The translations under genes were made by a program, and so were the position numbers. The notes beneath the pieces are model-generated. The model saw only the letters and a list, made by a program, of their open reading frames with translations. It was not told the DNA's origin and did not search any database. Positions 21,170 through 33,070 of a stretch of DNA of 33,070 bases are shown here, piece by piece. The DNA comes from a virus. The stretch is from UHGV virus genome UHGV-1834275. One strand, written 5' to 3'. Numbering within the stretch: position 1 is the stretch's first letter; every line of letters begins with the position of its first letter.

Positions 21170-23098
21170 TTATTTAAAGAATCCTCCACCACGTCTAGAC
21201 GGACGTACTACACGACCTGTTTTTACTGGTGCTGGTTCTTCTTTATTTACTTCTTTATTTAGTCCTTTCTCTTTTTGTTTGGCGTTGAATTCGCGTAGTT
21301 TGCGGAATGGCTGATTACCTAATTTAGATAGATACCAGTGGAAACATATTAAAGCGTAGTTAAGACAATCAAGCGTTTCATTCCTTGCTGAACTAATTTT
21401 CTTAACCCATACCCACGCCCCAGCTTTAATAACTCTCTTCTCACTTGATACCTGAATAAAGTAATCATCTGGTACTGAATGGCTGAAGTGTATTTGTACT
21501 TCACTACTATTACCACTATCCGATACTGCACGGTTTAATAGTTGTCTAATATTACTTTTCCCTAAGTTTACGTTTAGGTTTATTAGACTATGACCACCAG
21601 CCGTAGAGCCTTTAAAGAGTGGGTTAGTATTTGAAGTACCGCCCTTGATTGGTTTAAAGATTGTCGATGCACTACAATAGCGATATACCGTACTGGTTGC
21701 GTTACCGTTCGAACTATCTACAAAACCTGCAAGTACTTTAAGTGGTTTACCGGATACGGTTTTAAAGTTAGTTTGTGAAAATGCTGTTAGCTTATTCCAT
21801 GCGGGAGCCTCTATTTTAGTACAGTCAATGCTATGAATACTGCGATGATCGAGTACATAAAGATTCTTTTCACTTATTCCTAACGTTGTTACTTCAAGGC
21901 GGTCTAACTGTTGGTCTACACCTAGTACGATTCCTTGACAGTCATCCGGCACGGTATCTATATCTATTGAACTATCACGTAGGTTTTCAAGTAATACTAA
22001 ATCATGATCGGTATTCTCTTTATCAATATAAGGAAGTCCTAAGACGTTATTGTAGAATGAGGCTAGATCAAATGTATAATGTGCTTCGGCAAAATCCTGT
22101 ACTATTGATTTGATCGAGTTAATCGGGGAGTATAAACGGCTAATATGATACCCCATGATATCCGTTACTTCTGGTACTGTAGCTATCCATTCACCCTTAC
22201 GTACCATTCTTACACGTTCGGCTTCTGTGATTACATTATTACACTTAGGACATTGTAGTTTTGCTGTCTCTGCATCTGGAATGCGACGACGACCACCATC
22301 AATAATTTTCCAGTCGAATTTAACATTTTCAAATACTAATTCATGTGCATGATCACAATGTGGGCAAGGTACGTAGAACTTCTGTTTATTACTTTGCTCG
22401 TACTGCTGAGTGATTAAATCATTCTCATCAAGTGGTGTAGAACAAACCATAATAAGAGGGTTGCTAAAAGCCTTTGTACGCTGTTCTGCTAGCTTTAGTG
22501 GGTTCCCTTCATCACCATCTGCATCTACGTTAGATATTTCGTCAAGAAAGATACGGGGGGCTGTCAAGCCTCGCAAATTCGCACTACTACCCAATGTTAG
22601 GAAGTACGTAAAAGTACCGTCTAAGTTTTGTTGTGTCTTATCATTATTAGTATAGTTTTTATCATTCTTATTACTGACTAGATTTTTAAGTACTGCACAT
22701 GCTTCGATTACTGATTGCCATTTACCAGTACGAAACTTACTAGTAGTGCTGGCTGTTGCACCTGCGAAAATTAGATTGCTTGGATCATTTGCGAGGAAGT
22801 AGTACATACTATTCTGTAAAACTGTTGTTTTGAGAAGTTGTGCACTGCTCATCAAAACTATTTTTCTAATTCTTGGATTAGTAATGTCATTTATGGGCTT
22901 GTGCTGAAAGGAAAATAACTTTACGCGTTGTCCTTGTAGTTCCCCATCCGGGAATACTAAATTATTCTCTACCCATTCCGCTGGTAGTTGTCGCTTCGGA
23001 GGTAGGATCGACTTCGCCGCCCTCGTTAGTACCTTCATCATCTTCTGGTAGTTGTTCATCCGTGTATGTTCCTTCATATTCATAGCTACCAATTTCAT
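21170..23098 (-). CDS. Terminase large subunit, lambda GpA family
   Basis: LPAEWVENNLVFPDGELQGQRVKLFSFQ...SAQLLKTT parallels the lambda gpA N-terminus (TAVEWADANYYLP...FQ...SAR); C4 zinc-ribbon CPHCDHAHEL...CPKCNNV as in gpA (CPHCGEE...); C-terminal NETLDCLNYAL resembles gpA NEALDCFVYAL. The true start is probably an internal Met, since the ORF overlaps the small-subunit gene by up to 137 nt. Confidence 0.9.
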   Translation of the reverse strand: MKLVAMNMKEHTRMNNYQKMMKVLTRAAKSILPPKRQLPAEWVENNLVFPDGELQGQRVKLFSFQHKPINDITNPRIRKIVLMSSAQLLKTTVLQNSMYYFLANDPSNLIFAGATASTTSKFRTGKWQSVIEACAVLKNLVSNKNDKNYTNNDKTQQNLDGTFTYFLTLGSSANLRGLTAPRIFLDEISNVDADGDEGNPLKLAEQRTKAFSNPLIMVCSTPLDENDLITQQYEQSNKQKFYVPCPHCDHAHELVFENVKFDWKIIDGGRRRIPDAETAKLQCPKCNNVITEAERVRMVRKGEWIATVPEVTDIMGYHISRLYSPINSIKSIVQDFAEAHYTFDLASFYNNVLGLPYIDKENTDHDLVLLENLRDSSIDIDTVPDDCQGIVLGVDQQLDRLEVTTLGISEKNLYVLDHRSIHSIDCTKIEAPAWNKLTAFSQTNFKTVSGKPLKVLAGFVDSSNGNATSTVYRYCSASTIFKPIKGGTSNTNPLFKGSTAGGHSLINLNVNLGKSNIRQLLNRAVSDSGNSSEVQIHFSHSVPDDYFIQVSSEKRVIKAGAWVWVKKISSARNETLDCLNYALICFHWYLSKLGNQPFRKLREFNAKQKEKGLNKEVNKEEPAPVKTGRVVRPSRRGGGFFK

Positions 23099-23534
23099 TT
23101 AATTGATCATCTATTTTTTCCTGTAGTTTGATTTTTAATTCTAATGCGTCTGCTGATTCGAATAATTCAACATAACTTGACGCGGGAATACTTCTTAATA
23201 CTTGGCGTAGTTGGTAGAAGTATTGGGATAAAGTTTGCTGTACTACTGCTACTGGTATTAGCTCGCCGGATTGCTGACGTAATTCCATTTCTTTAATATC
23301 AGCTTCTGCTTCTAACTTACGTAGTGTTGCTTTTTGTATTTGGCCTTTTGTATCACCGCTTCTTAGTGGTTCGATTACGTTTGCAAGTAACCAATCGTCA
23401 ACTAATTTCTTAGGCCAGGTGATATCTAAACCTTTACCAGACCATATACGGCTAACAGTAGAATGCTCTACGCCGAAACGATCCGCGATTTCTTGCCACG
23501 TGTAGCGGGTTCCATCGTCTTTAATTTTTGCCAT
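22962..23534 (-). CDS. Terminase small subunit, Nu1-like (start placed at internal ATG 23534)
   Basis: N-terminal helix-turn-helix (WQEIADRFGVEHSTVSRIW), then Trp-containing and coiled-coil region (LVDDWLLANV...EAEADIKEMELRQQ) as in lambda Nu1; acidic C-terminus; AAGGA about 10 nt upstream of ATG 23534. Located immediately upstream of the GpA-like gene. Confidence 0.7.
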   Translation of the reverse strand: MAKIKDDGTRYTWQEIADRFGVEHSTVSRIWSGKGLDITWPKKLVDDWLLANVIEPLRSGDTKGQIQKATLRKLEAEADIKEMELRQQSGELIPVAVVQQTLSQYFYQLRQVLRSIPASSYVELFESADALELKIKLQEKIDDQLNEIGSYEYEGTYTDEQLPEDDEGTNEGGEVDPTSEATTTSGMGRE

Positions 23535-23763
23535 TTTGTTTAGTCCTTGTTTAGTACAATAAACCTGTACTTTCCTTTTATTTCGTTTTGTTTGTTTTCG
23601 ATTAGAAATCCCACGAATTTTAAATACAATTCGCGGCGAAAACTCGATTTTTTTGTTCTCAATTAGAGAACCTAAAGTTAAAACTTCACTCACGATTTTA
23701 ATTTTTGATTTGTAATAATATTTATATTATCATTGTATTATAAAGTAACAACAAGGACATGTA

Positions 23764-24702
23764 ATGAAACACATAATCCAAACCAGAAGTGTTTTTAAGG
23801 ATATCGAAGACTCTTTATTTAGTGAGTTGCATTCAGCTAAGACAAGTATCAAAATCTGTGTTGCATGGATAAACTTTGAGCTTTTTGAAAATATATTATT
23901 ATCTAAGGCTAAAGAAGGTGTTGAAGTTGAGATATTAGTTAATAATGATTATATCAATACAAAATTTCTTGATAAAATATCTGATAATATAAAACCATTA
24001 ATTAATCTAATTAAAAACCCTATTAGTAACCACTTAATGCATCATAAATTTTGTATCATTGATGATGAAGTTTTGATTACTGGCAGTTATAATTGGTCAA
24101 AAAGAGCACCATATCATTATGAAAATATAATAATCATCCGTAATGATTTCAATCTAATAATGCAATTTAAACATGAGTTTGCAGATTTAAAATACATGGG
24201 TGCAATGCCAAGTACAGAATTTAATGCATTTAAAGTAACCAAAAATCTCAATAGATTTGTTGTTGGCACATATAGTTCATCTGTGGGGATATATGAAACC
24301 GTCACATTGCAGTTATGGGAAATTGATATTAACAACTTAACTTTTGAACGACATGGCGAAATGGATATCCCTTTCTTCAATTATTTATTAGATATTAATA
24401 CTGATGATCATTATCTTATTGATGAAAAAGAAAGGTACATCGATCTATATGATCAAGAGCGTAGACAGATGGAGACTATCCAAAGTCATTTTAGAAGATT
24501 AAATTGTTCAATTCATGCTTATGGAACAGCAATAATAGCGAACGAGAGCGAATACCTTGAAGGTTATGAAGAGCCTATTCGTGTAATTCACTTCAATTGG
24601 ATAGATATGCGATTAAGCAAAGTATTACCCTCTTCTTTGCCCGCAACTATGGAACTTGAAGGATTATGGCACGAAATATATGCTCCAAATGGATATATTT
24701 AA
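23764..24702 (+). CDS. Phospholipase-D-family (single HKD) nuclease with an uncharacterised C-terminal domain
   Basis: Perfect HxK(x)4D(x)6GSxN motif: HHKFCIIDDEVLITGSYN; preceding KICVAWINFELFENILLSKAKEGVEVEILV typical of PLD/Nuc folds; ~170-residue C-terminal region without recognised motifs; AAGGA 7 nt upstream of the ATG. Confidence 0.8.
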   Translation: MKHIIQTRSVFKDIEDSLFSELHSAKTSIKICVAWINFELFENILLSKAKEGVEVEILVNNDYINTKFLDKISDNIKPLINLIKNPISNHLMHHKFCIIDDEVLITGSYNWSKRAPYHYENIIIIRNDFNLIMQFKHEFADLKYMGAMPSTEFNAFKVTKNLNRFVVGTYSSSVGIYETVTLQLWEIDINNLTFERHGEMDIPFFNYLLDINTDDHYLIDEKERYIDLYDQERRQMETIQSHFRRLNCSIHAYGTAIIANESEYLEGYEEPIRVIHFNWIDMRLSKVLPSSLPATMELEGLWHEIYAPNGYI

Positions 24703-24719
24703 ATAATATTCTATAATTA

Positions 24720-25094
24720 ATGAGGAACGGTATTATGTCTAATTATCCTATACCACTTAGCCTTGAATTTAATAGTCAAGATACTGCTAATATCATTTGT
24801 AGTTATCTAGAAAAAAATCATCAAGATTCTATTTTAAAAACCATATTAAATATAGATTTGTCTTTTATTGATTATCGTGCACAATCTTCTAATTACTTTA
24901 TAATTAATGACGTTGAATATATTGGAGATAATAATTATATTTTATATTATAAAATAAACTACTACATTTATAATCTCTGTAAAGATATGGATATTGATGA
25001 TGACTACGAGACTTCGATAAATTTTACATTGAATAATGGATTTTTAGTATTTGATATAATTGATTGTGAAAGAAATATATCAGATGAAATATAG
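24720..25094 (+). CDS. Small acidic hypothetical protein, co-transcribed with the PLD nuclease
   Basis: Starts 17 nt after the PLD stop; Asp/Ile/Tyr/Asn-rich; no recognised motif; followed by a hairpin terminator. Confidence 0.5.
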   Translation: MRNGIMSNYPIPLSLEFNSQDTANIICSYLEKNHQDSILKTILNIDLSFIDYRAQSSNYFIINDVEYIGDNNYILYYKINYYIYNLCKDMDIDDDYETSINFTLNNGFLVFDIIDCERNISDEI

Positions 25095-25158
25095 CCATAT
25101 TTAATTATCACTTAAGGATTTCAACATCAGGATTTAAATTTTAATTATATATAATAGT

Positions 25159-25190
25159 AAAAGCCTAATACTCATCAGTAATAGGCTTTT
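25159..25190. terminator. Bidirectional terminator between convergent accessory genes
   Basis: AAAAGCCTA (25159..25167) / TAGGCTTTT (25182..25190) 9-bp stem with 14-nt loop; A- and T-tracts built into the stem ends. Confidence 0.5.
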
Positions 25191-25197
25191 ACCTAAA

Positions 25198-25617
25198 TTA
25201 TAATTGATTCAATCGATAGATATTAGATGTACTTGAGCCATCGCTATACACCTCTGATATAGTCAGTTTGTTTCCATCCACTTTGTATTTTACTACACTA
25301 TCAGCCGGATCATTTCTCCAACGACCTGAGCTATCTGGATTGTTTGATGCCCACATAACTTGATCATCAATCAGTTTGCACTTGATAGCCCATCTTGTGC
25401 TGTCATCTTTACGTATGTAATGGACATAGGCTACATCAGATTGAATCTTATCAAGCTTCATTATTTTATGATCTCGCCCAAACATAGATGCAGCCGCCGC
25501 TTTGCAGATCTGACCAACATTAGCTTCCGCTGCGTAGAGTGAAGAACTGAACAATAATGGCACAATCACTAATAACTTTATCATCGCATATCGTCTCGTA
25601 GTAAAAATTAATTTCAC
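25198..25617 (-). CDS. Secreted/periplasmic protein with N-terminal signal peptide
   Basis: MIKLLVIVPLLFSSSLYAAEA has the n/h/c pattern of a Sec signal peptide with an A-x-A site; the track start is GTG at 25617 with AAGGA upstream, and ATG 25584 is an alternative. Mature part has paired Cys residues; no catalytic motif. Confidence 0.55.
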   Translation of the reverse strand: MKLIFTTRRYAMIKLLVIVPLLFSSSLYAAEANVGQICKAAAASMFGRDHKIMKLDKIQSDVAYVHYIRKDDSTRWAIKCKLIDDQVMWASNNPDSSGRWRNDPADSVVKYKVDGNKLTISEVYSDGSSTSNIYRLNQL

Positions 25618-25618
25618 C

Positions 25619-26344
25619 TTATTTCCTTAATAACTTTTTTAATTCCTCAACTGTCTTCATTTCTTTTCCAATATGAATCATTGCATGACAGTTTGCACAT
25701 AAAGGTATAAGATCTTCAATTGGGTCAATCTTATAGCGTTTACCAATAGTATGTAGTGGCACTATATGATGAACATGAATATAATTTTTTCCGTGACTTC
25801 CATACACTTCTTCAAAATTAAAACCACAGACACCACAACTCAAACCATGTTTATCGATACATTCTTTTCTAGCCTTTGGATCTCTCTCATAGTACGTAGC
25901 AATCCTTTGATGCTTTTCACCTTCATAGTATTCACTTTCTATTTCAGGTGTGAATGAATAGTAATCTTCATCGGTGGCATACCAATCTCCATCTTTTTTA
26001 GTAAGATATTTTCGTACTATTTTCTTTTCAAAATGTTTAATCCTAGCAGCACCATTTTCAGTTGTTTTCTCATGCCTAGTCTGGCTAAAGGTGAAAAGAC
26101 TATACCCTTCATGTAAAATTTTATCTATGTGTTCGATAGATTGTGTATAACCATTTTTTTTGTGTCCATTTACATTTTCACGCCAACTGCTAGCCAAGAT
26201 TAAAACTTTCTTACCATCATCTGATCTAAGATCTTCCCAAGCTCCAAAAATTATTTTTTTGTTGATCTCATCAATAAATGACCAACTCCAGTTATCATTT
26301 TTACATGTAGCACCCAAAGAACGCATGAACTCTGTTCGGGACAT
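25619..26344 (-). CDS. HNH endonuclease (McrA-type HNH) with an N-terminal domain of unknown function
   Basis: C-terminus CGVCGFNFEEVYGSHGKNYIHVHHIVPLHTIGKRYKIDPIEDLIPLCANCHAMIH matches the McrA-type HNH/zinc-ribbon pattern (C..CG...HH..PL...G....N...LC.NCH...H); N-terminal ~170 residues show no recognised motif. Confidence 0.8.
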   Translation of the reverse strand: MSRTEFMRSLGATCKNDNWSWSFIDEINKKIIFGAWEDLRSDDGKKVLILASSWRENVNGHKKNGYTQSIEHIDKILHEGYSLFTFSQTRHEKTTENGAARIKHFEKKIVRKYLTKKDGDWYATDEDYYSFTPEIESEYYEGEKHQRIATYYERDPKARKECIDKHGLSCGVCGFNFEEVYGSHGKNYIHVHHIVPLHTIGKRYKIDPIEDLIPLCANCHAMIHIGKEMKTVEELKKLLRK

Positions 26345-26382
26345 TTTTCATCCTTAAAATATGTGACCTACATCACATGAAA

Positions 26383-26463
26383 CTATCGACTGTAGGAGGT
26401 TTCTATCCTTCGTAAAGCTAACAAACCTACCCAAAGTAGATAGAAACCTCCTACAATCGATAG
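26383..26463. repeat. 25-bp inverted repeat (one mismatch) with 31-nt spacer in a divergent intergenic region
   Basis: CTATCGACTGTAGGAGGTTTCTATC (26383..26407) and GATAGAAACCTCCTACAATCGATAG (26439..26463) are reverse complements except for one position. Confidence 0.75.
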
Positions 26464-26547
26464 TGTATGTGTGTTCCTTTTGATGGTAAAGTATTAATAT
26501 AGTGTTACCTAGACTGGGTGTACATATAATCAATATTTGGGTTTGAT

Positions 26548-27258
26548 ATGCTTAATCTCACTAAATGTAATTTACTTTTGATCGGCACTGTAATAACTCT
26601 ATTACTGATAGCTATTCTTGTAGGTATAAAAATACTATTCTCCGATTCTAATCCAGATCTAGGCAGCTTAGCAGATTGGATCAGTTCTGTATCCGCAATA
26701 GGGACTCTTGGTGTTGCCTGGTTAGCTTATAGTAAAGCTGATGACTACATTGACAAAAAAGCTTCGGAAAGAGGAATTGATATCCTTGTCAATATGGTAA
26801 CTGAATCATTCGTTGCTTATTTCAACTCACTAAATGAAACTAATTTCCATGCTTCAAAACTTGAAAATAAAATGATATTGATTGGCTTGGTTGATGAAAA
26901 AGTAGATTGCAATATTGAACTACAATCATTAAGAGAAAAAATCATAACTCTCTTCGAAAATAGTCATCAAATAGACAAAGATTTTATAAAAATGAAAATA
27001 ATGAAAATATCAAAACCCAGTGATATTTTCTACGATCCAGTAACTAGCGATGATACATTGCAAGCGTTAAAATTAGCATTTCATAAACTGAACACTGAAA
27101 TTTGTGAGAATGAAAATCAATACAACATTAATAATGATTTACTTAGCGAAAATATCAACTTTATTAAAAACACTACCGAAAAGTTAGCCCATGATATTCG
27201 CAAACAGTTCTTTACCTCGCCGAATACTTATAAAGATTATTTTGGAAATCTGTCTTAA
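26548..27258 (+). CDS. Membrane protein with two N-terminal TM helices; paralogue of 779..1519
   Basis: LLLIGTVITLLLIAILVGIKILF then DLGSLADWISSVSAIGTLGVAWLAYSK; shares the GSLADW(L/I)SS loop motif with 779..1519; soluble C-terminal domain diverged. Confidence 0.6.
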   Translation: MLNLTKCNLLLIGTVITLLLIAILVGIKILFSDSNPDLGSLADWISSVSAIGTLGVAWLAYSKADDYIDKKASERGIDILVNMVTESFVAYFNSLNETNFHASKLENKMILIGLVDEKVDCNIELQSLREKIITLFENSHQIDKDFIKMKIMKISKPSDIFYDPVTSDDTLQALKLAFHKLNTEICENENQYNINNDLLSENINFIKNTTEKLAHDIRKQFFTSPNTYKDYFGNLS

Positions 27259-27303
27259 ATTATACGCTATCAAATATTCCATCAACATAAACAAGGAAAG
27301 TAG

Positions 27304-28002
27304 ATGACTACTCTCACTAGAACTTATAATTTACCAAATGAGCTAGTTGAACATTTTTCAAATAACATTGTCTATTTCGAAAAACTTTTGTCTAAGGATT
27401 TTTCTGACTTAAATGTTAATGTAGCACCAGAAGACATTAAGAAAATAGAAAAATCTTTCGAAGTATCACATAGAATACGTGATTTCGAAATCAATCTGTA
27501 TTGGCAAAGACTGAACTTCCTTTGGGCCATTACAGCATTGCTATTTGCTGGATGGGGAACATTGATCTTTAAAATCATCGAATTCAATGGAGGGGAAGCA
27601 CCTTATATTATATTTGCCGCCTTATCATTTCTCTCACTTATAGGTGGGATTGTAACTATATTCACAAGCTTTATCATTGAGGCAGGTAAGCATTGGCAAA
27701 AGGTTTGGGAGTTTCATGTTCACGCTCTTGAACCTTTTGTATCAGGTCATTTATATGCAATTCAGTTTTCTTATAAAAATAAAAAAAAGGCATCTATAAG
27801 TAGAAGCGTAGAAACTTTCAATTATGCTTTGCTGTTTCTTTGGGCATGTTCAGCAGTATTCGCCGCAATCATCCCTTCACAAATAGGGAACGGTCTTGCA
27901 GGCATTATCCAATTAGTTATTTCTCTTCTTATAGTTGGTGCTTTTGTTTATATACGCAACTCTGTTACTAAAAAGGAGTCTATTAAAATTCAGCTTGATT
28001 AA
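27304..28002 (+). CDS. Integral membrane protein (about 4 TM helices) with ~65-residue soluble N-terminus
   Basis: AAGGAAAG ribosome-binding site; hydrophobic segments LNFLWAITALLFAGWGTLIF, YIIFAALSFLSLIGGIVTIFTSFII, FNYALLFLWACSAVFAAII, LAGIIQLVISLLIVGAFVYI; 45 nt downstream of the 2TM gene, same strand; followed by a terminator. Confidence 0.6.
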   Translation: MTTLTRTYNLPNELVEHFSNNIVYFEKLLSKDFSDLNVNVAPEDIKKIEKSFEVSHRIRDFEINLYWQRLNFLWAITALLFAGWGTLIFKIIEFNGGEAPYIIFAALSFLSLIGGIVTIFTSFIIEAGKHWQKVWEFHVHALEPFVSGHLYAIQFSYKNKKKASISRSVETFNYALLFLWACSAVFAAIIPSQIGNGLAGIIQLVISLLIVGAFVYIRNSVTKKESIKIQLD

Positions 28003-29708: not shown

Positions 29709-30194
29709 TTAGTTGTCTTTTGCAACCTTTGTATATGTCTGTCTATGTGTACTTCTATTGTACTTTTCATTCATGAATAGCGTGATATTGATACATGACA
29801 TTCCACCAGTGTATAACGCCTTTACTTCATCTTTTTGTACTGGTGTTAGACGTGGTTCATTTTGTTTCTTACGTACTGCCTTACATGAATTTTCACTATA
29901 TGTAATCCACTGCAAATTAGAAATATTGTTGTCTCGTTTATCACTATTGATATTATCTACAACTAATCTTTTATTTGTTTGGGGTTTACTTAGAAATGTT
30001 TCTGCTACGAGTCTGTGTGTCTCTATCGGATATGATTTAGATTTCCCATCCTCATAAACAGTTAAAGTAACTTTATAGTACCCATTACTTTTACTATAAC
30101 TCTGTGTTAGATAATTACCCGTTTTAGTATTGCGTACTTCTCCGTTACTACTTACTTCATAATTTACATATTGTGTTTGTTTCCATAATGTCAT
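29709..30194 (-). CDS. HNH homing-endonuclease-like protein (NUMOD4-like N-terminus plus HNH_3-like core)
   Basis: YEVSSNGEVRN...NGYYKV...HRLVAETF...VDNINSDKRDNNISNLQWITYSEN matches the phage free-standing HNH endonuclease pattern (Y.VS..G.V...G....h.lva..f.....v.H.d..k.nN...NL.w.t..eN), but with Asn where the first His is expected. Confidence 0.7.
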   Translation of the reverse strand: MTLWKQTQYVNYEVSSNGEVRNTKTGNYLTQSYSKSNGYYKVTLTVYEDGKSKSYPIETHRLVAETFLSKPQTNKRLVVDNINSDKRDNNISNLQWITYSENSCKAVRKKQNEPRLTPVQKDEVKALYTGGMSCINITLFMNEKYNRSTHRQTYTKVAKDN

Positions 30195-31171: not shown

Positions 31172-33070
31172 CTAGATCTGGTCTATCCGATAACGCTCTA
31201 TGAACTCTTTACGTGTTAAACCAGTCGATTCTAATGCAGTGGCTATATCCTTTGGAACTCGACCATTCAAGGCAATACTATATGTATTGCCTTCATACAC
31301 AATGTCTACTCGATCATACTTTCCGGTATTAGGCCAGAATGAAGCCCCACTTATTTCACTATAACCAACCACTTCTAACATCTCATTAGCAGTATTGAAC
31401 AGATCTAAATAACTTTGTTCAATTTTATCAAGTTGTTCCACTGCTTTATTAAATAATGGCAGATTGCTAGTGGTAAGAAATCCTTCATCTCTGATACTTA
31501 CATTATCAACAGAAGAAAATTCAACTTTAAACGCCCAATGTGGTTTTCTATCAGTTCCACCAAAAACTAACCATTCATCTTTAAAATGATACTTTATTTT
31601 TATCGTTATACACCCATCAGTTTTATCAACTATAACACTTTCAATAATAGAACTAATTACTTTCCTTATTTTATTTCTATCCGTATCCTGCATATTTGTA
31701 AAAACCGCCCACTGAATAAGAATCATAAATTCATTTATATCGACTTCTAGAGATCCTTTACCTTTCAGTGAATATAAGCGTTCTTTTAACTTATCAACTT
31801 CCAGAACAGTCTTTTTACGTTCCATATCAAACGCATTTAGTTGAACTGCTAACGCACTAACATTAGGAGCAATTGCTATTGCTTGAGCCATGTTTGTTAT
31901 GCGAGATTCCAGATCAGTTATCAACGTTTCTTTTCTACTGAGGTCTTCTTCTATCACAGTTGTGTCAATACCATCTTTTAGTCTCTTATTCATGTAACCG
32001 ATCAGTAGTGAAATGATCGTACAGTGTTCAACTAATTGTGCTGATATAGACCAGCCAGAACAGTTTTTTTGTAAGTGAACCCCATTAGTACAAATATAGC
32101 GAGCACTGCCATGATTCATGAAAGAATGCATAGTTCCTCCACACTTGCTACACCGTAACACCTGCAACCCTGATAACAATTTAATTTCTTCTACTTTGTC
32201 TTTCTTAGCCTTGAAGTTGTTTTGCTGCTTACGTTCAGCCAAGGTTAAATACTCTGCTTCATCTTTGCATAACCATGGATAGTAGTTATCAAGTTTGTAA
32301 GTAGCACCACCAGCATTGATAGTCCTTTCACCAATCAACGCCCGATTATCACGCATCTTTTTCAATACCTGATAATCCCATTCTTTACCCTTTAAACCAT
32401 TAGGATATTTTTTATCGAGATGACGCTTTACTGTATAGATGCCATTCCCATCTAAAAACATGTCTATAGCTTCGCGAGCGATACTCCAGTAAACGGGATG
32501 TTCTTTTACTGCTTCATATTGCGAACCTGAATCATCTATCCAAAATGGATGGCGACCAACTGACTTAATGTTTACTGGCAACCCTGCTTTATGACGTTCG
32601 ACCAAGGCAACAACATTGCCTATGGTCCTGTTAGATTTCGTTTCTGATTCTTCATTGCCACGGATAAACATCAGAATAGAAATCATCAGATCAGTAGGGT
32701 TTTGTCTGATGGATTCTCTGTTATAGACCTTCCGATCCATTCCTGTGACAATCGTTAGCCCTAAACCAATCAATTCAAGGAATAAACGAAGTGCTTCATC
32801 CACCTGATCGCGTGATAGTCGGTCGAGGTTTTCACAGTAAAGCCAAGAGTCAGACGGTATAGCATTATTTTTTACGGCGTCTATGAAGTCACCCAACTTA
32901 CCCGCCCTATTTTTTCCCCTGTAAGCACTCGTGCCAGGTTCCAAAATTTCAACCATTTCAAGCCCCGCTTCTTCAGCATAGGCTTTCGCTGCCGCTACCT
33001 GCCTGTTCTTGGTTGTTCCTTTTTCTTGGCGATCACTTGACCACCTGATATAGCTATAAAGTTGCGGCAT
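31172..33070 (-). CDS. Large serine recombinase (phage integrase of the resolvase/invertase superfamily)
   Basis: N-terminus MPQLYSYIRWSSDRQ has the catalytic-serine motif (Y.R.SS..Q) of serine recombinases; 632 aa with Cys-rich region (CSKCGGTMHS...CTNGVHLQKNCSGW) and long C-terminal extension typical of large serine integrases. The start codon is at the last base of the window. Confidence 0.85.
   Translation of the reverse strand: MPQLYSYIRWSSDRQEKGTTKNRQVAAAKAYAEEAGLEMVEILEPGTSAYRGKNRAGKLGDFIDAVKNNAIPSDSWLYCENLDRLSRDQVDEALRLFLELIGLGLTIVTGMDRKVYNRESIRQNPTDLMISILMFIRGNEESETKSNRTIGNVVALVERHKAGLPVNIKSVGRHPFWIDDSGSQYEAVKEHPVYWSIAREAIDMFLDGNGIYTVKRHLDKKYPNGLKGKEWDYQVLKKMRDNRALIGERTINAGGATYKLDNYYPWLCKDEAEYLTLAERKQQNNFKAKKDKVEEIKLLSGLQVLRCSKCGGTMHSFMNHGSARYICTNGVHLQKNCSGWSISAQLVEHCTIISLLIGYMNKRLKDGIDTTVIEEDLSRKETLITDLESRITNMAQAIAIAPNVSALAVQLNAFDMERKKTVLEVDKLKERLYSLKGKGSLEVDINEFMILIQWAVFTNMQDTDRNKIRKVISSIIESVIVDKTDGCITIKIKYHFKDEWLVFGGTDRKPHWAFKVEFSSVDNVSIRDEGFLTTSNLPLFNKAVEQLDKIEQSYLDLFNTANEMLEVVGYSEISGASFWPNTGKYDRVDIVYEGNTYSIALNGRVPKDIATALESTGLTRKEFIERYRIDQI

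What the first reader, a model, noticed from the sequence alone, without database searches (positions are those of the whole stretch)
25198..26344. McrA-type HNH endonuclease fused to an unrecognised N-terminal domain, followed by a signal-peptide protein
The C-terminal ~55 residues carry a complete HNH/zinc-ribbon signature (CGVCG...HVHHIVPL...LCANCHAMIH) very like the catalytic module of modification-dependent (type IV) restriction enzymes. The N-terminal ~170 residues, where such enzymes carry their modified-base reader, match nothing I recognise. The downstream gene starts 1 nt after the HNH stop with its ribosome-binding site inside the HNH coding end, and encodes an exported protein. A cytoplasmic nuclease coupled to a periplasmic protein is an unusual pairing.
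Basis: partly seen in the sequence, partly recalled or inferred. Interest (0 to 1): 0.65.

Follow-up and report, generated by a model that had tools for sequence, protein, structure and literature searches.

The report
Prophage restriction nuclease with unclassified reader
A prophage gene encodes what is most likely a one-protein restriction enzyme that cuts chemically modified foreign DNA, built from a familiar HNH cutting module and an N-terminal sensor domain that no database has classified; the exported protein next to it is an unrelated passenger gene.

Summary
The HNH gene is real: 25619-26344, minus strand, 241 aa. It has a complete McrA-type HNH/zinc-finger module and a compact N-terminal domain of about 125 aa. 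That domain matches no Pfam, NCBIfam, PADLOC or PHROG model and no PDB sequence.

The best reading is a prophage-carried, single-gene type IV restriction enzyme with an unclassified reader. Its target modification is unknown.

The claimed coupling to the exported protein is not supported:
- That gene most likely starts at ATG 25584, 34 nt after the HNH stop.
- Its family occurs without any HNH gene in Yersinia, Morganella and Pantoea.
- HNH homologues at 70% identity or less lack it.

This is a new variant of a known kind, of moderate interest.

The parts
25619..26344 (-). Gene for the 241-aa reader-HNH protein, a putative single-chain type IV restriction endonuclease
   Evidence: ORF. Pfam HNH. 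PADLOC mREase_IV, C-terminal part only. Full-length homologues in many phyla.
25970..26344 (-). Codons 1-125: compact N-terminal alpha/beta domain, the putative modified-DNA reader. Invariant residues are T13, C14, S20, W21, S22, F23, F33, G34, A35, W36, I49, W54, Q68, H72, Y81, L83, F86 and A123.
25895..25969 (-).
   Evidence: pLDDT below 50 at residues 133-138 and 146-150. The recombination joint with L090 lies just upstream; the last difference is at nt 342, codon 114.
25622..25894 (-). Codons 151-241: McrA-type HNH (beta-beta-alpha-Me) cassette with a CX2C...CX2C zinc site and a preceding YERxxxAR helix
26382..26464 (-). Long hairpin (26-nt arms, 31-nt loop) in the presumed 5' leader of the HNH mRNA
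   Evidence: Inverted repeat, 96% complementary. RNA fold of -59 kcal/mol, z -7.9. Nine pairs kept by double changes among four loci.
26351..26355 (-). AAGGA ribosome-binding site, 6 nt before the HNH ATG
   Evidence: Read directly from the sequence.
25198..25584 (-). 128-aa exported protein of unknown function (signal peptide MIKLLVIVPLLFSSSLYA|AE). It may be transcribed with the HNH gene but is an independent cargo gene.
   Evidence: Gene calls. Family alignment with a conserved signal peptide and two invariant Cys. Independent occurrences. Start-codon test.
25157..25193 (.). Hairpin between the convergent gene pairs, a probable two-way terminator
   Evidence: RNA fold of -23 kcal/mol, z -5.9, followed by a U-rich run.

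Best explanation
The 241-aa protein is most likely a stand-alone, prophage-carried type IV (modification-dependent) restriction endonuclease. Its N-terminal domain of about 125 aa, a family no database has classified, would bind a modified nucleotide in incoming DNA, possibly by flipping the base into an aromatic-lined pocket as SRA domains do. A flexible linker then lets the C-terminal zinc-stabilised HNH module cut nearby. This would protect the lysogen from phages with modified genomes. The host escapes damage because its own DNA lacks the target mark, so no methyltransferase is needed.

Shown here:
- the intact nuclease motifs;
- the two-domain build;
- the stand-alone distribution;
- the reuse of the N-terminal domain with other nucleases and known readers.

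Inferred:
- DNA binding by the N-terminal domain;
- dependence on modification;
- the identity of the mark;
- the defence phenotype.

The exported 128-aa protein downstream is a separate passenger gene that merely shares the cassette in the closest relatives.
For: 1. Nuclease. Pfam HNH E 3.6e-8. Alignment to the EcoKMcrA catalytic domain. Catalytic His and zinc Cys invariant in 43 sequences.

2. Stand-alone gene. In an all-against-all comparison of the ORFs of about 70 loci (full-length genome loci plus encoding contigs of closer homologues), no neighbour family recurs in more than 6 loci. The recurring ones include transposases and serine recombinases.

3. The N-terminal domain is portable. 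An exhaustive profile search found 312 cluster representatives at E<=1e-3. Architectures include:
- EVE + domain + HNH (P0250, P0262, P0205);
- domain + NOV_C (P0219, P0259);
- domain + DUF3427 + NOV_C (P0254), the layout of the characterised enzyme YenY4I, whose catalytic domain PMC6765204 labels DUF3883; NOV_C and DUF3883 being the same family is my own knowledge;
- domain + MUG113 (P0265).

4. The HNH cassette is portable. Cassettes 50-62% identical are fused to EVE, DUF3427, Mrr_N and DUF6009.

6. Location. A low-GC cargo slot of a prophage beside other nuclease and membrane cargo genes. The same slot holds SMODS+SLATT in an E. coli relative.

7. Allele swap. It is then identical through the nuclease and beyond.
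Against: - No experiment exists on any family member that I could find.
- Foldseek finds nothing significant; the best hit is AbaSI, E 0.087, TM 0.41.
- The secondary-structure order alpha-beta-beta-beta-alpha-beta would also fit a degenerate PD-(D/E)XK core.
- There is no profile similarity to EVE and no Pfam SRA hit.
- The enterobacterial host probably has Dam and Dcm methylation (my own knowledge, not tested here), so the target cannot simply be any 5mC or 6mA.
- The domain also occurs after a VWA domain (P0271), which is not a restriction-enzyme layout.
Confidence: 0.62

Rival explanations
1. A nuclease that does not read DNA modification. The N-terminal domain binds a DNA sequence or structure, or senses a phage protein or small molecule. 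The HNH module then acts as an abortive-infection or toxin-like effector rather than a type IV restriction enzyme.
Against: No conserved partner that could make a signal or act as an antitoxin was found in about 70 loci. The domain's fusion partners are the nuclease and reader set typical of modification-dependent enzymes. A constitutive, non-specific nuclease with no immunity gene should be lethal.
Confidence: 0.2
2. A two-gene system in which the cytoplasmic HNH nuclease works with the exported 128-aa protein, for example with the envelope protein sensing infection.
For: The two genes are adjacent and co-oriented, with no terminator-like site predicted between them and a single hairpin after the second gene. 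The pair travels together into at least two different phage backgrounds. A different signal-peptide ORF follows the 72%-identical homologue in L092.
Against: The exported family occurs without the HNH gene: after a 520-aa gene in Yersinia, after a tail-fibre gene in a Morganella prophage, and between GST genes in Pantoea. HNH homologues at 70% and 67% identity lack it, as do about 60 distant loci. The likely start leaves a 34-nt spacer.
Confidence: 0.05
3. A phage housekeeping HNH: either a packaging accessory that helps terminase cut cos sites (HK97 gp74 type) or a homing endonuclease.
For: The gene lies about 2 kb from the terminase genes, on the same strand, in a prophage.
Against: The large terminase is lambda GpA-like with its own nuclease domain. 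A two-gene cassette on the opposite strand separates the HNH gene from terS. Family members occur mostly outside phage packaging modules, in many phyla, and no terminase neighbour is conserved. No deposited phage genome carries the full protein. The 125-aa extra domain shares fusion partners with restriction enzymes.
Confidence: 0.05

Closest known systems
SRA-HNH type IV restriction endonucleases (TagI, PDB 6ghs; ScoA3IV/Sco5333)
   Same: Both are single chains of about 240-290 aa with an N-terminal reader, a linker and a C-terminal zinc-containing HNH module, and neither has a methyltransferase partner (PMC6765204). TagI and other SRA domains are among the best structural matches to the N-terminal domain.
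EcoKMcrA (PDB 6ghc), encoded by the e14 prophage of E. coli K-12 (prophage origin from my own knowledge)
EVE-HNH enzymes (VcaM4I/TspA15I) and YenY4I (reader + DUF3427 + DUF3883 PD-(D/E)XK)
   Same: HNH cassettes 56-59% identical to the window's are fused to EVE (L078 type).
   Different: The window's reader shows no profile similarity to EVE (hhalign probability 0.2%). In some proteins it occurs together with EVE, so it is a distinct module.
ScoMcrA (PDB 5zmm/5zmn), a phosphorothioate- and 5mC-dependent SBD-SRA-HNH enzyme

Membership tests
Reader-HNH type IV (modification-dependent) restriction endonucleases | C-terminal beta-beta-alpha-Me HNH nuclease with an intact catalytic His and a CX2C...CX2C zinc site | tested here: met
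   Pfam HNH E 3.6e-8. Alignment to 6ghc. Invariant H193, N218, H220, H224, C170, C173, C216, C219.
Reader-HNH type IV (modification-dependent) restriction endonucleases | A separate domain that recognises modified DNA | tested here: inconclusive
Reader-HNH type IV (modification-dependent) restriction endonucleases | Stand-alone gene with no obligatory methyltransferase or other partner | tested here: met
   No neighbour family recurs in more than 6 of about 70 loci, and no methyltransferase family was identified among the recurring ones.
Reader-HNH type IV (modification-dependent) restriction endonucleases | Cleavage or phage restriction that depends on a DNA modification | not testable with these tools
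   Needs enzyme assays or plaque assays.
SRA-HNH subfamily (TagI, ScoA3IV) | N-terminal domain recognisable as SRA by sequence models | tested here: not met
   None of 33 N-terminal domains hits the Pfam SRA model even at E<=10. A profile search of PDB sequences finds no SRA chain.
SRA-HNH subfamily (TagI, ScoA3IV) | SRA fold of the reader domain | tested here: inconclusive
EcoKMcrA family in the strict sense | McrA-type N-terminal 5mC-binding domain | tested here: not met
Phage packaging HNH (HK97 gp74 type) | Conserved linkage to terminase genes | tested here: not met
   No terminase neighbour is conserved across the loci. The terminase here is GpA-type with its own nuclease.
Hypothetical HNH + exported-partner two-gene system | Conserved co-occurrence of the two genes | tested here: not met
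   Homologues of the exported protein were found next to the HNH gene only where the HNH is 89% identical or more. At 72% identity the downstream ORF is an unrelated exported protein. Each gene occurs without the other.

The most novel reading that the evidence does not exclude
The N-terminal domain is a previously unrecognised class of modified-DNA reader. It would be either a new fold or an SRA derivative diverged beyond sequence recognition. Its target would be a mark other than plain 5mC or 5hmC, for example a hypermodified phage base or a backbone modification. It would be used as an interchangeable specificity module by several nuclease types across many phyla.
Probability: 0.3. Interest if true: 0.65.

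Novelty: new variant of a known kind. Interest (0 to 1): 0.45.

Why it matters
Modification-dependent nucleases are phage-defence genes and also laboratory tools for mapping DNA modifications. A widespread reader domain has escaped Pfam and the defence-system catalogues. It combines with at least three predicted nuclease domain families and with the readers EVE and DUF3427. It could add a new specificity to that toolbox and would let many genes now labelled only 'HNH endonuclease' be annotated properly. The finding is not a new principle, because the architecture and logic are those of known type IV enzymes.

Tried and rejected
- **Sequence family for the N-terminal domain.** Pfam, PADLOC, NCBIfam and PHROGs on the whole protein, Pfam at E<=10 on 33 isolated domains and a profile search of PDB sequences (best hit ribosomal protein S6, E 0.29, judged chance) all gave nothing.
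- **Relation to EVE.** hhalign of the domain profile against an EVE profile built from session sequences gave probability 0.2%.
- **Foldseek against the PDB.** No significant hit.
- **SRA-like middle domain in P0264.** I suspected one from a remembered motif. Neither Pfam nor the PDB sequence search confirmed it, so I dropped the claim.
- **Similar phage genomes.** Megablast found nothing for the window. tblastn found only HNH-cassette matches.
- **Rfam on the whole window.** No family reached threshold.
- **Consensus terminator scan.** It found nothing in 25000-26700. The hairpin after the exported gene was found by folding instead.
- **Exported protein.** Only sub-threshold Pfam hits (DarA_N E 0.031, Lipocalin_4 E 0.098), treated as noise.
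- **L092 downstream ORF.** BLASTP against the window's exported protein gave E 2.5, so the two are unrelated.

Full report
**Setting**

The window is a low-GC prophage (36.9% GC).
- It carries a serine-recombinase integrase (31172-33070), lambda GpA-type large terminase, portal and capsid genes.
- The HNH locus matches Pseudocitrobacter faecalis DSM 27453 at 100% amino-acid identity.
- The identical HNH protein is listed in 114 blocks of the public assembly collection.
- The finding lies in a cargo island at 28-34% GC, between the small-terminase gene (22962-23693) and the early genes.
- The island holds four units:
  - a PLD/NucT-like nuclease (23764-24702) with a 124-aa partner on the plus strand;
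  - the HNH gene with the exported-protein gene on the minus strand;
  - a 236-aa membrane protein;
  - an 8xMP membrane protein.

**Observation**

The ORF at 25619-26344 (-) encodes 241 aa.
- Pfam HNH matches residues 170-224 (E 3.6e-8).
- PADLOC's type IV model mREase_IV matches only its C-terminal part.
- Residues 146-234 align with residues 193-276 of EcoKMcrA, 6ghc (E 4.4e-8), including the HVHH and CxNCH...H motifs.
- In 43 homologues C170, C173, H192, H193, C216, N218, C219, H220 and H224 are invariant, so the catalytic module is intact.
- The AlphaFold model (pLDDT 83) shows a compact N-terminal domain (residues 1-125), a low-confidence linker (126-150) and the HNH module.
- The unassigned part is therefore about 125 aa, not 170.

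**The family**

Full-length homologues at 40-99% identity are numerous (285 clusters with E<=1e-3). In one-genome-per-species data they occur in Proteobacteria, Verrucomicrobiota, Planctomycetota, Bacteroidota, Chlorobiota, Armatimonadota and others.

The N-terminal domain is as conserved as the nuclease. It carries an aromatic-rich signature: GATCKNWxWSWSF, IIFGAW[DE], W54, GYxQSxEH, Y81.

I compared all ORFs of about 70 loci against each other. These were the full-length genome loci plus encoding contigs of closer homologues. No neighbour family recurred in more than 6 loci. The small recurring groups include transposases and serine recombinases. The gene is therefore autonomous and often sits on mobile DNA.

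**What the N-terminal domain is**

By sequence it belongs to nothing described.
- None of 33 isolated domains has a consistent Pfam hit at E<=10.
- There is no PDB sequence relative.
- There is no profile similarity to EVE.

The domain-only model is confident (pLDDT 89, pTM 0.83). The structure searches disagree.
- Foldseek finds nothing significant; the best hit is AbaSI with E 0.087 and TM 0.41.
- I rate the fold as SRA-like but unproven. EcoKMcrA's own N-terminal domain is not among the hits, so the protein is not an McrA orthologue.

**Domain shuffling**

This is the stronger argument. An exhaustive profile search with the N-terminal domain found 312 cluster representatives at E<=1e-3. Besides the roughly 245-aa form, the domain occurs in these layouts:

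| Layout | Examples |
|---|---|
| EVE + domain + HNH | P0250, P0262, P0205 |
| domain + NOV_C | P0219, P0259 |
| domain + DUF3427 + NOV_C | P0254 |
| domain + MUG113 | P0265 |
| VWA + domain | P0271 |

- NOV_C is the family formerly called DUF3883 (my own knowledge). PMC6765204 gives DUF3883 as the PD-(D/E)XK catalytic domain of YenY4I.
- P0254 therefore has the layout of YenY4I, a characterised 5mC/5hmC-preferring enzyme.
- MUG113 is a GIY-YIG-related nuclease family (my own knowledge).
- The VWA layout (P0271) is the one that does not fit a restriction enzyme.

The converse also holds. HNH cassettes 50-62% identical to the window's are fused to EVE, DUF3427, Mrr_N and DUF6009. EVE, SRA and DUF3427 are established or proposed modification sensors (PMC6765204). 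Winged-helix sensors of 6mA are described in PMC11037411. Mrr_N being a winged helix is my own knowledge. A reader-like module that swaps nucleases, joined to a nuclease cassette that swaps known readers, is the signature of modification-dependent restriction enzymes.

**Micro-evolution agrees**

Locus L090 differs from the window at 80 positions, all within nt 1-342 of the gene (the reader domain). It is then identical through the nuclease cassette and the exported gene, and it stays near-identical for more than 2 kb beyond. The upstream DNA is unrelated.

**The exported protein**

The longest ORF (GTG 25617) does start 1 nt after the HNH stop. Three lines of evidence favour ATG 25584 instead.
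- Gene callers choose it (128 aa).
- Most aligned family members begin at the equivalent Met.
- Against L007, the 11 codons upstream carry 3 non-synonymous and 0 synonymous changes. The next 120 codons carry 0 non-synonymous and 5 synonymous changes.

The family is restricted to Enterobacterales. It has a conserved signal peptide, an A-x-A site and two invariant cysteines, so export is plausible.

The family is independent of the HNH gene.
- It follows a 520-aa gene in a Yersinia island that also holds GmrSD.
- It follows a tail-fibre gene in Morganella prophages.
- It sits between GST genes in Pantoea.
- HNH homologues at 70% and 67% identity have no such neighbour.
- About 60 distant loci have no homologue within about 5 kb.
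- In L092 a different, unrelated signal-peptide ORF follows the 72%-identical HNH gene.

The pairing is a local cassette, not a system.

**Expression signals**

- An AAGGA site lies 6 nt before the HNH ATG.
- The leader contains a 26-bp-arm hairpin at 26382-26464. Nine of its pairs are maintained by double changes among four loci.
- The hairpin is absent upstream of the E. coli homologues.
- A strong hairpin at 25157-25193 follows the exported gene.
- Nothing in Rfam matches.

**Conclusion**

Independent evidence has strengthened it. The idea of a nuclease coupled to a periplasmic partner does not stand.

The system works like the SRA-HNH and EVE-HNH enzymes. It fails the sequence-level test for membership in the SRA-HNH subfamily and the test for the McrA family. 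I found no paper describing this domain, and no deposited phage genome carries it.

I file it as a new variant of a known kind. The target modification is unknown, and the defence function is inferred rather than shown.

Noticed in passing
window 26382-26464 (also L007, L090, L092 upstream of the HNH gene): A 26-nt-arm inverted repeat lies in the presumed 5' leader of the HNH mRNA (RNA fold z -7.9). Among four loci the arm sequences differ but pairing is kept at 9 positions by double changes, while the loop is conserved. It is absent upstream of the 70% and 67% identical E. coli homologues. It may be a processing or attenuation element that limits nuclease expression.
   Followed up: partly
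L090/L091 compared with window 25198-26344: There is a recombination joint inside the HNH gene. All 80 nucleotide differences fall in nt 1-342 (the reader domain). The nuclease cassette and the exported gene are then identical, and the next 2 kb are near-identical. The upstream DNA is unrelated.
   Followed up: yes
window 23764-25094 (+): A PLD-family (NucT/DpdK/DrmC-like) 312-aa protein is followed 17 nt later by a 124-aa protein (PHROG 13663, unknown function). This looks like a second nuclease-type cargo cassette convergent with the HNH cassette.
   Followed up: no
window 26548-28002 (+): Two membrane-protein genes are divergent from the HNH gene. One is a 236-aa protein with no family. The other is a 232-aa 8xMP (octameric membrane protein) family member with a weak SLATT_5 hit. 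In some otherwise identical prophages the 8xMP gene is truncated (L003, 112 aa).
   Followed up: no
L093 (E. coli homologue, 70% identity): The same prophage slot, just upstream of the terminase genes, holds the HNH gene next to a SMODS + SLATT pair instead of the PLD cassette. This suggests the slot is a hot spot for swapping defence-type cargo.
   Followed up: no
L092 5745-6158: A 137-aa ORF with a clear signal peptide follows the 72%-identical HNH gene by 15 nt. It has no detectable similarity to the window's exported protein (BLASTP E 2.5). Two unrelated exported proteins in the same position may be coincidence or may hint at a preferred insertion point.
   Followed up: partly
L095-L097 (Yersinia enterocolitica): A homologue of the exported protein (74% identity) lies 55 nt after an uncharacterised 520-aa gene. 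The island also contains GmrSD, a Cap4-like nuclease and an AAA/SEC-C protein.
   Followed up: no
window 29709-30194 (-), and L001 compared with L002: A NUMOD4/HNH_3 homing-type endonuclease gene is present in this prophage variant. In otherwise near-identical prophages a 645-aa ORF replaces it.
   Followed up: no
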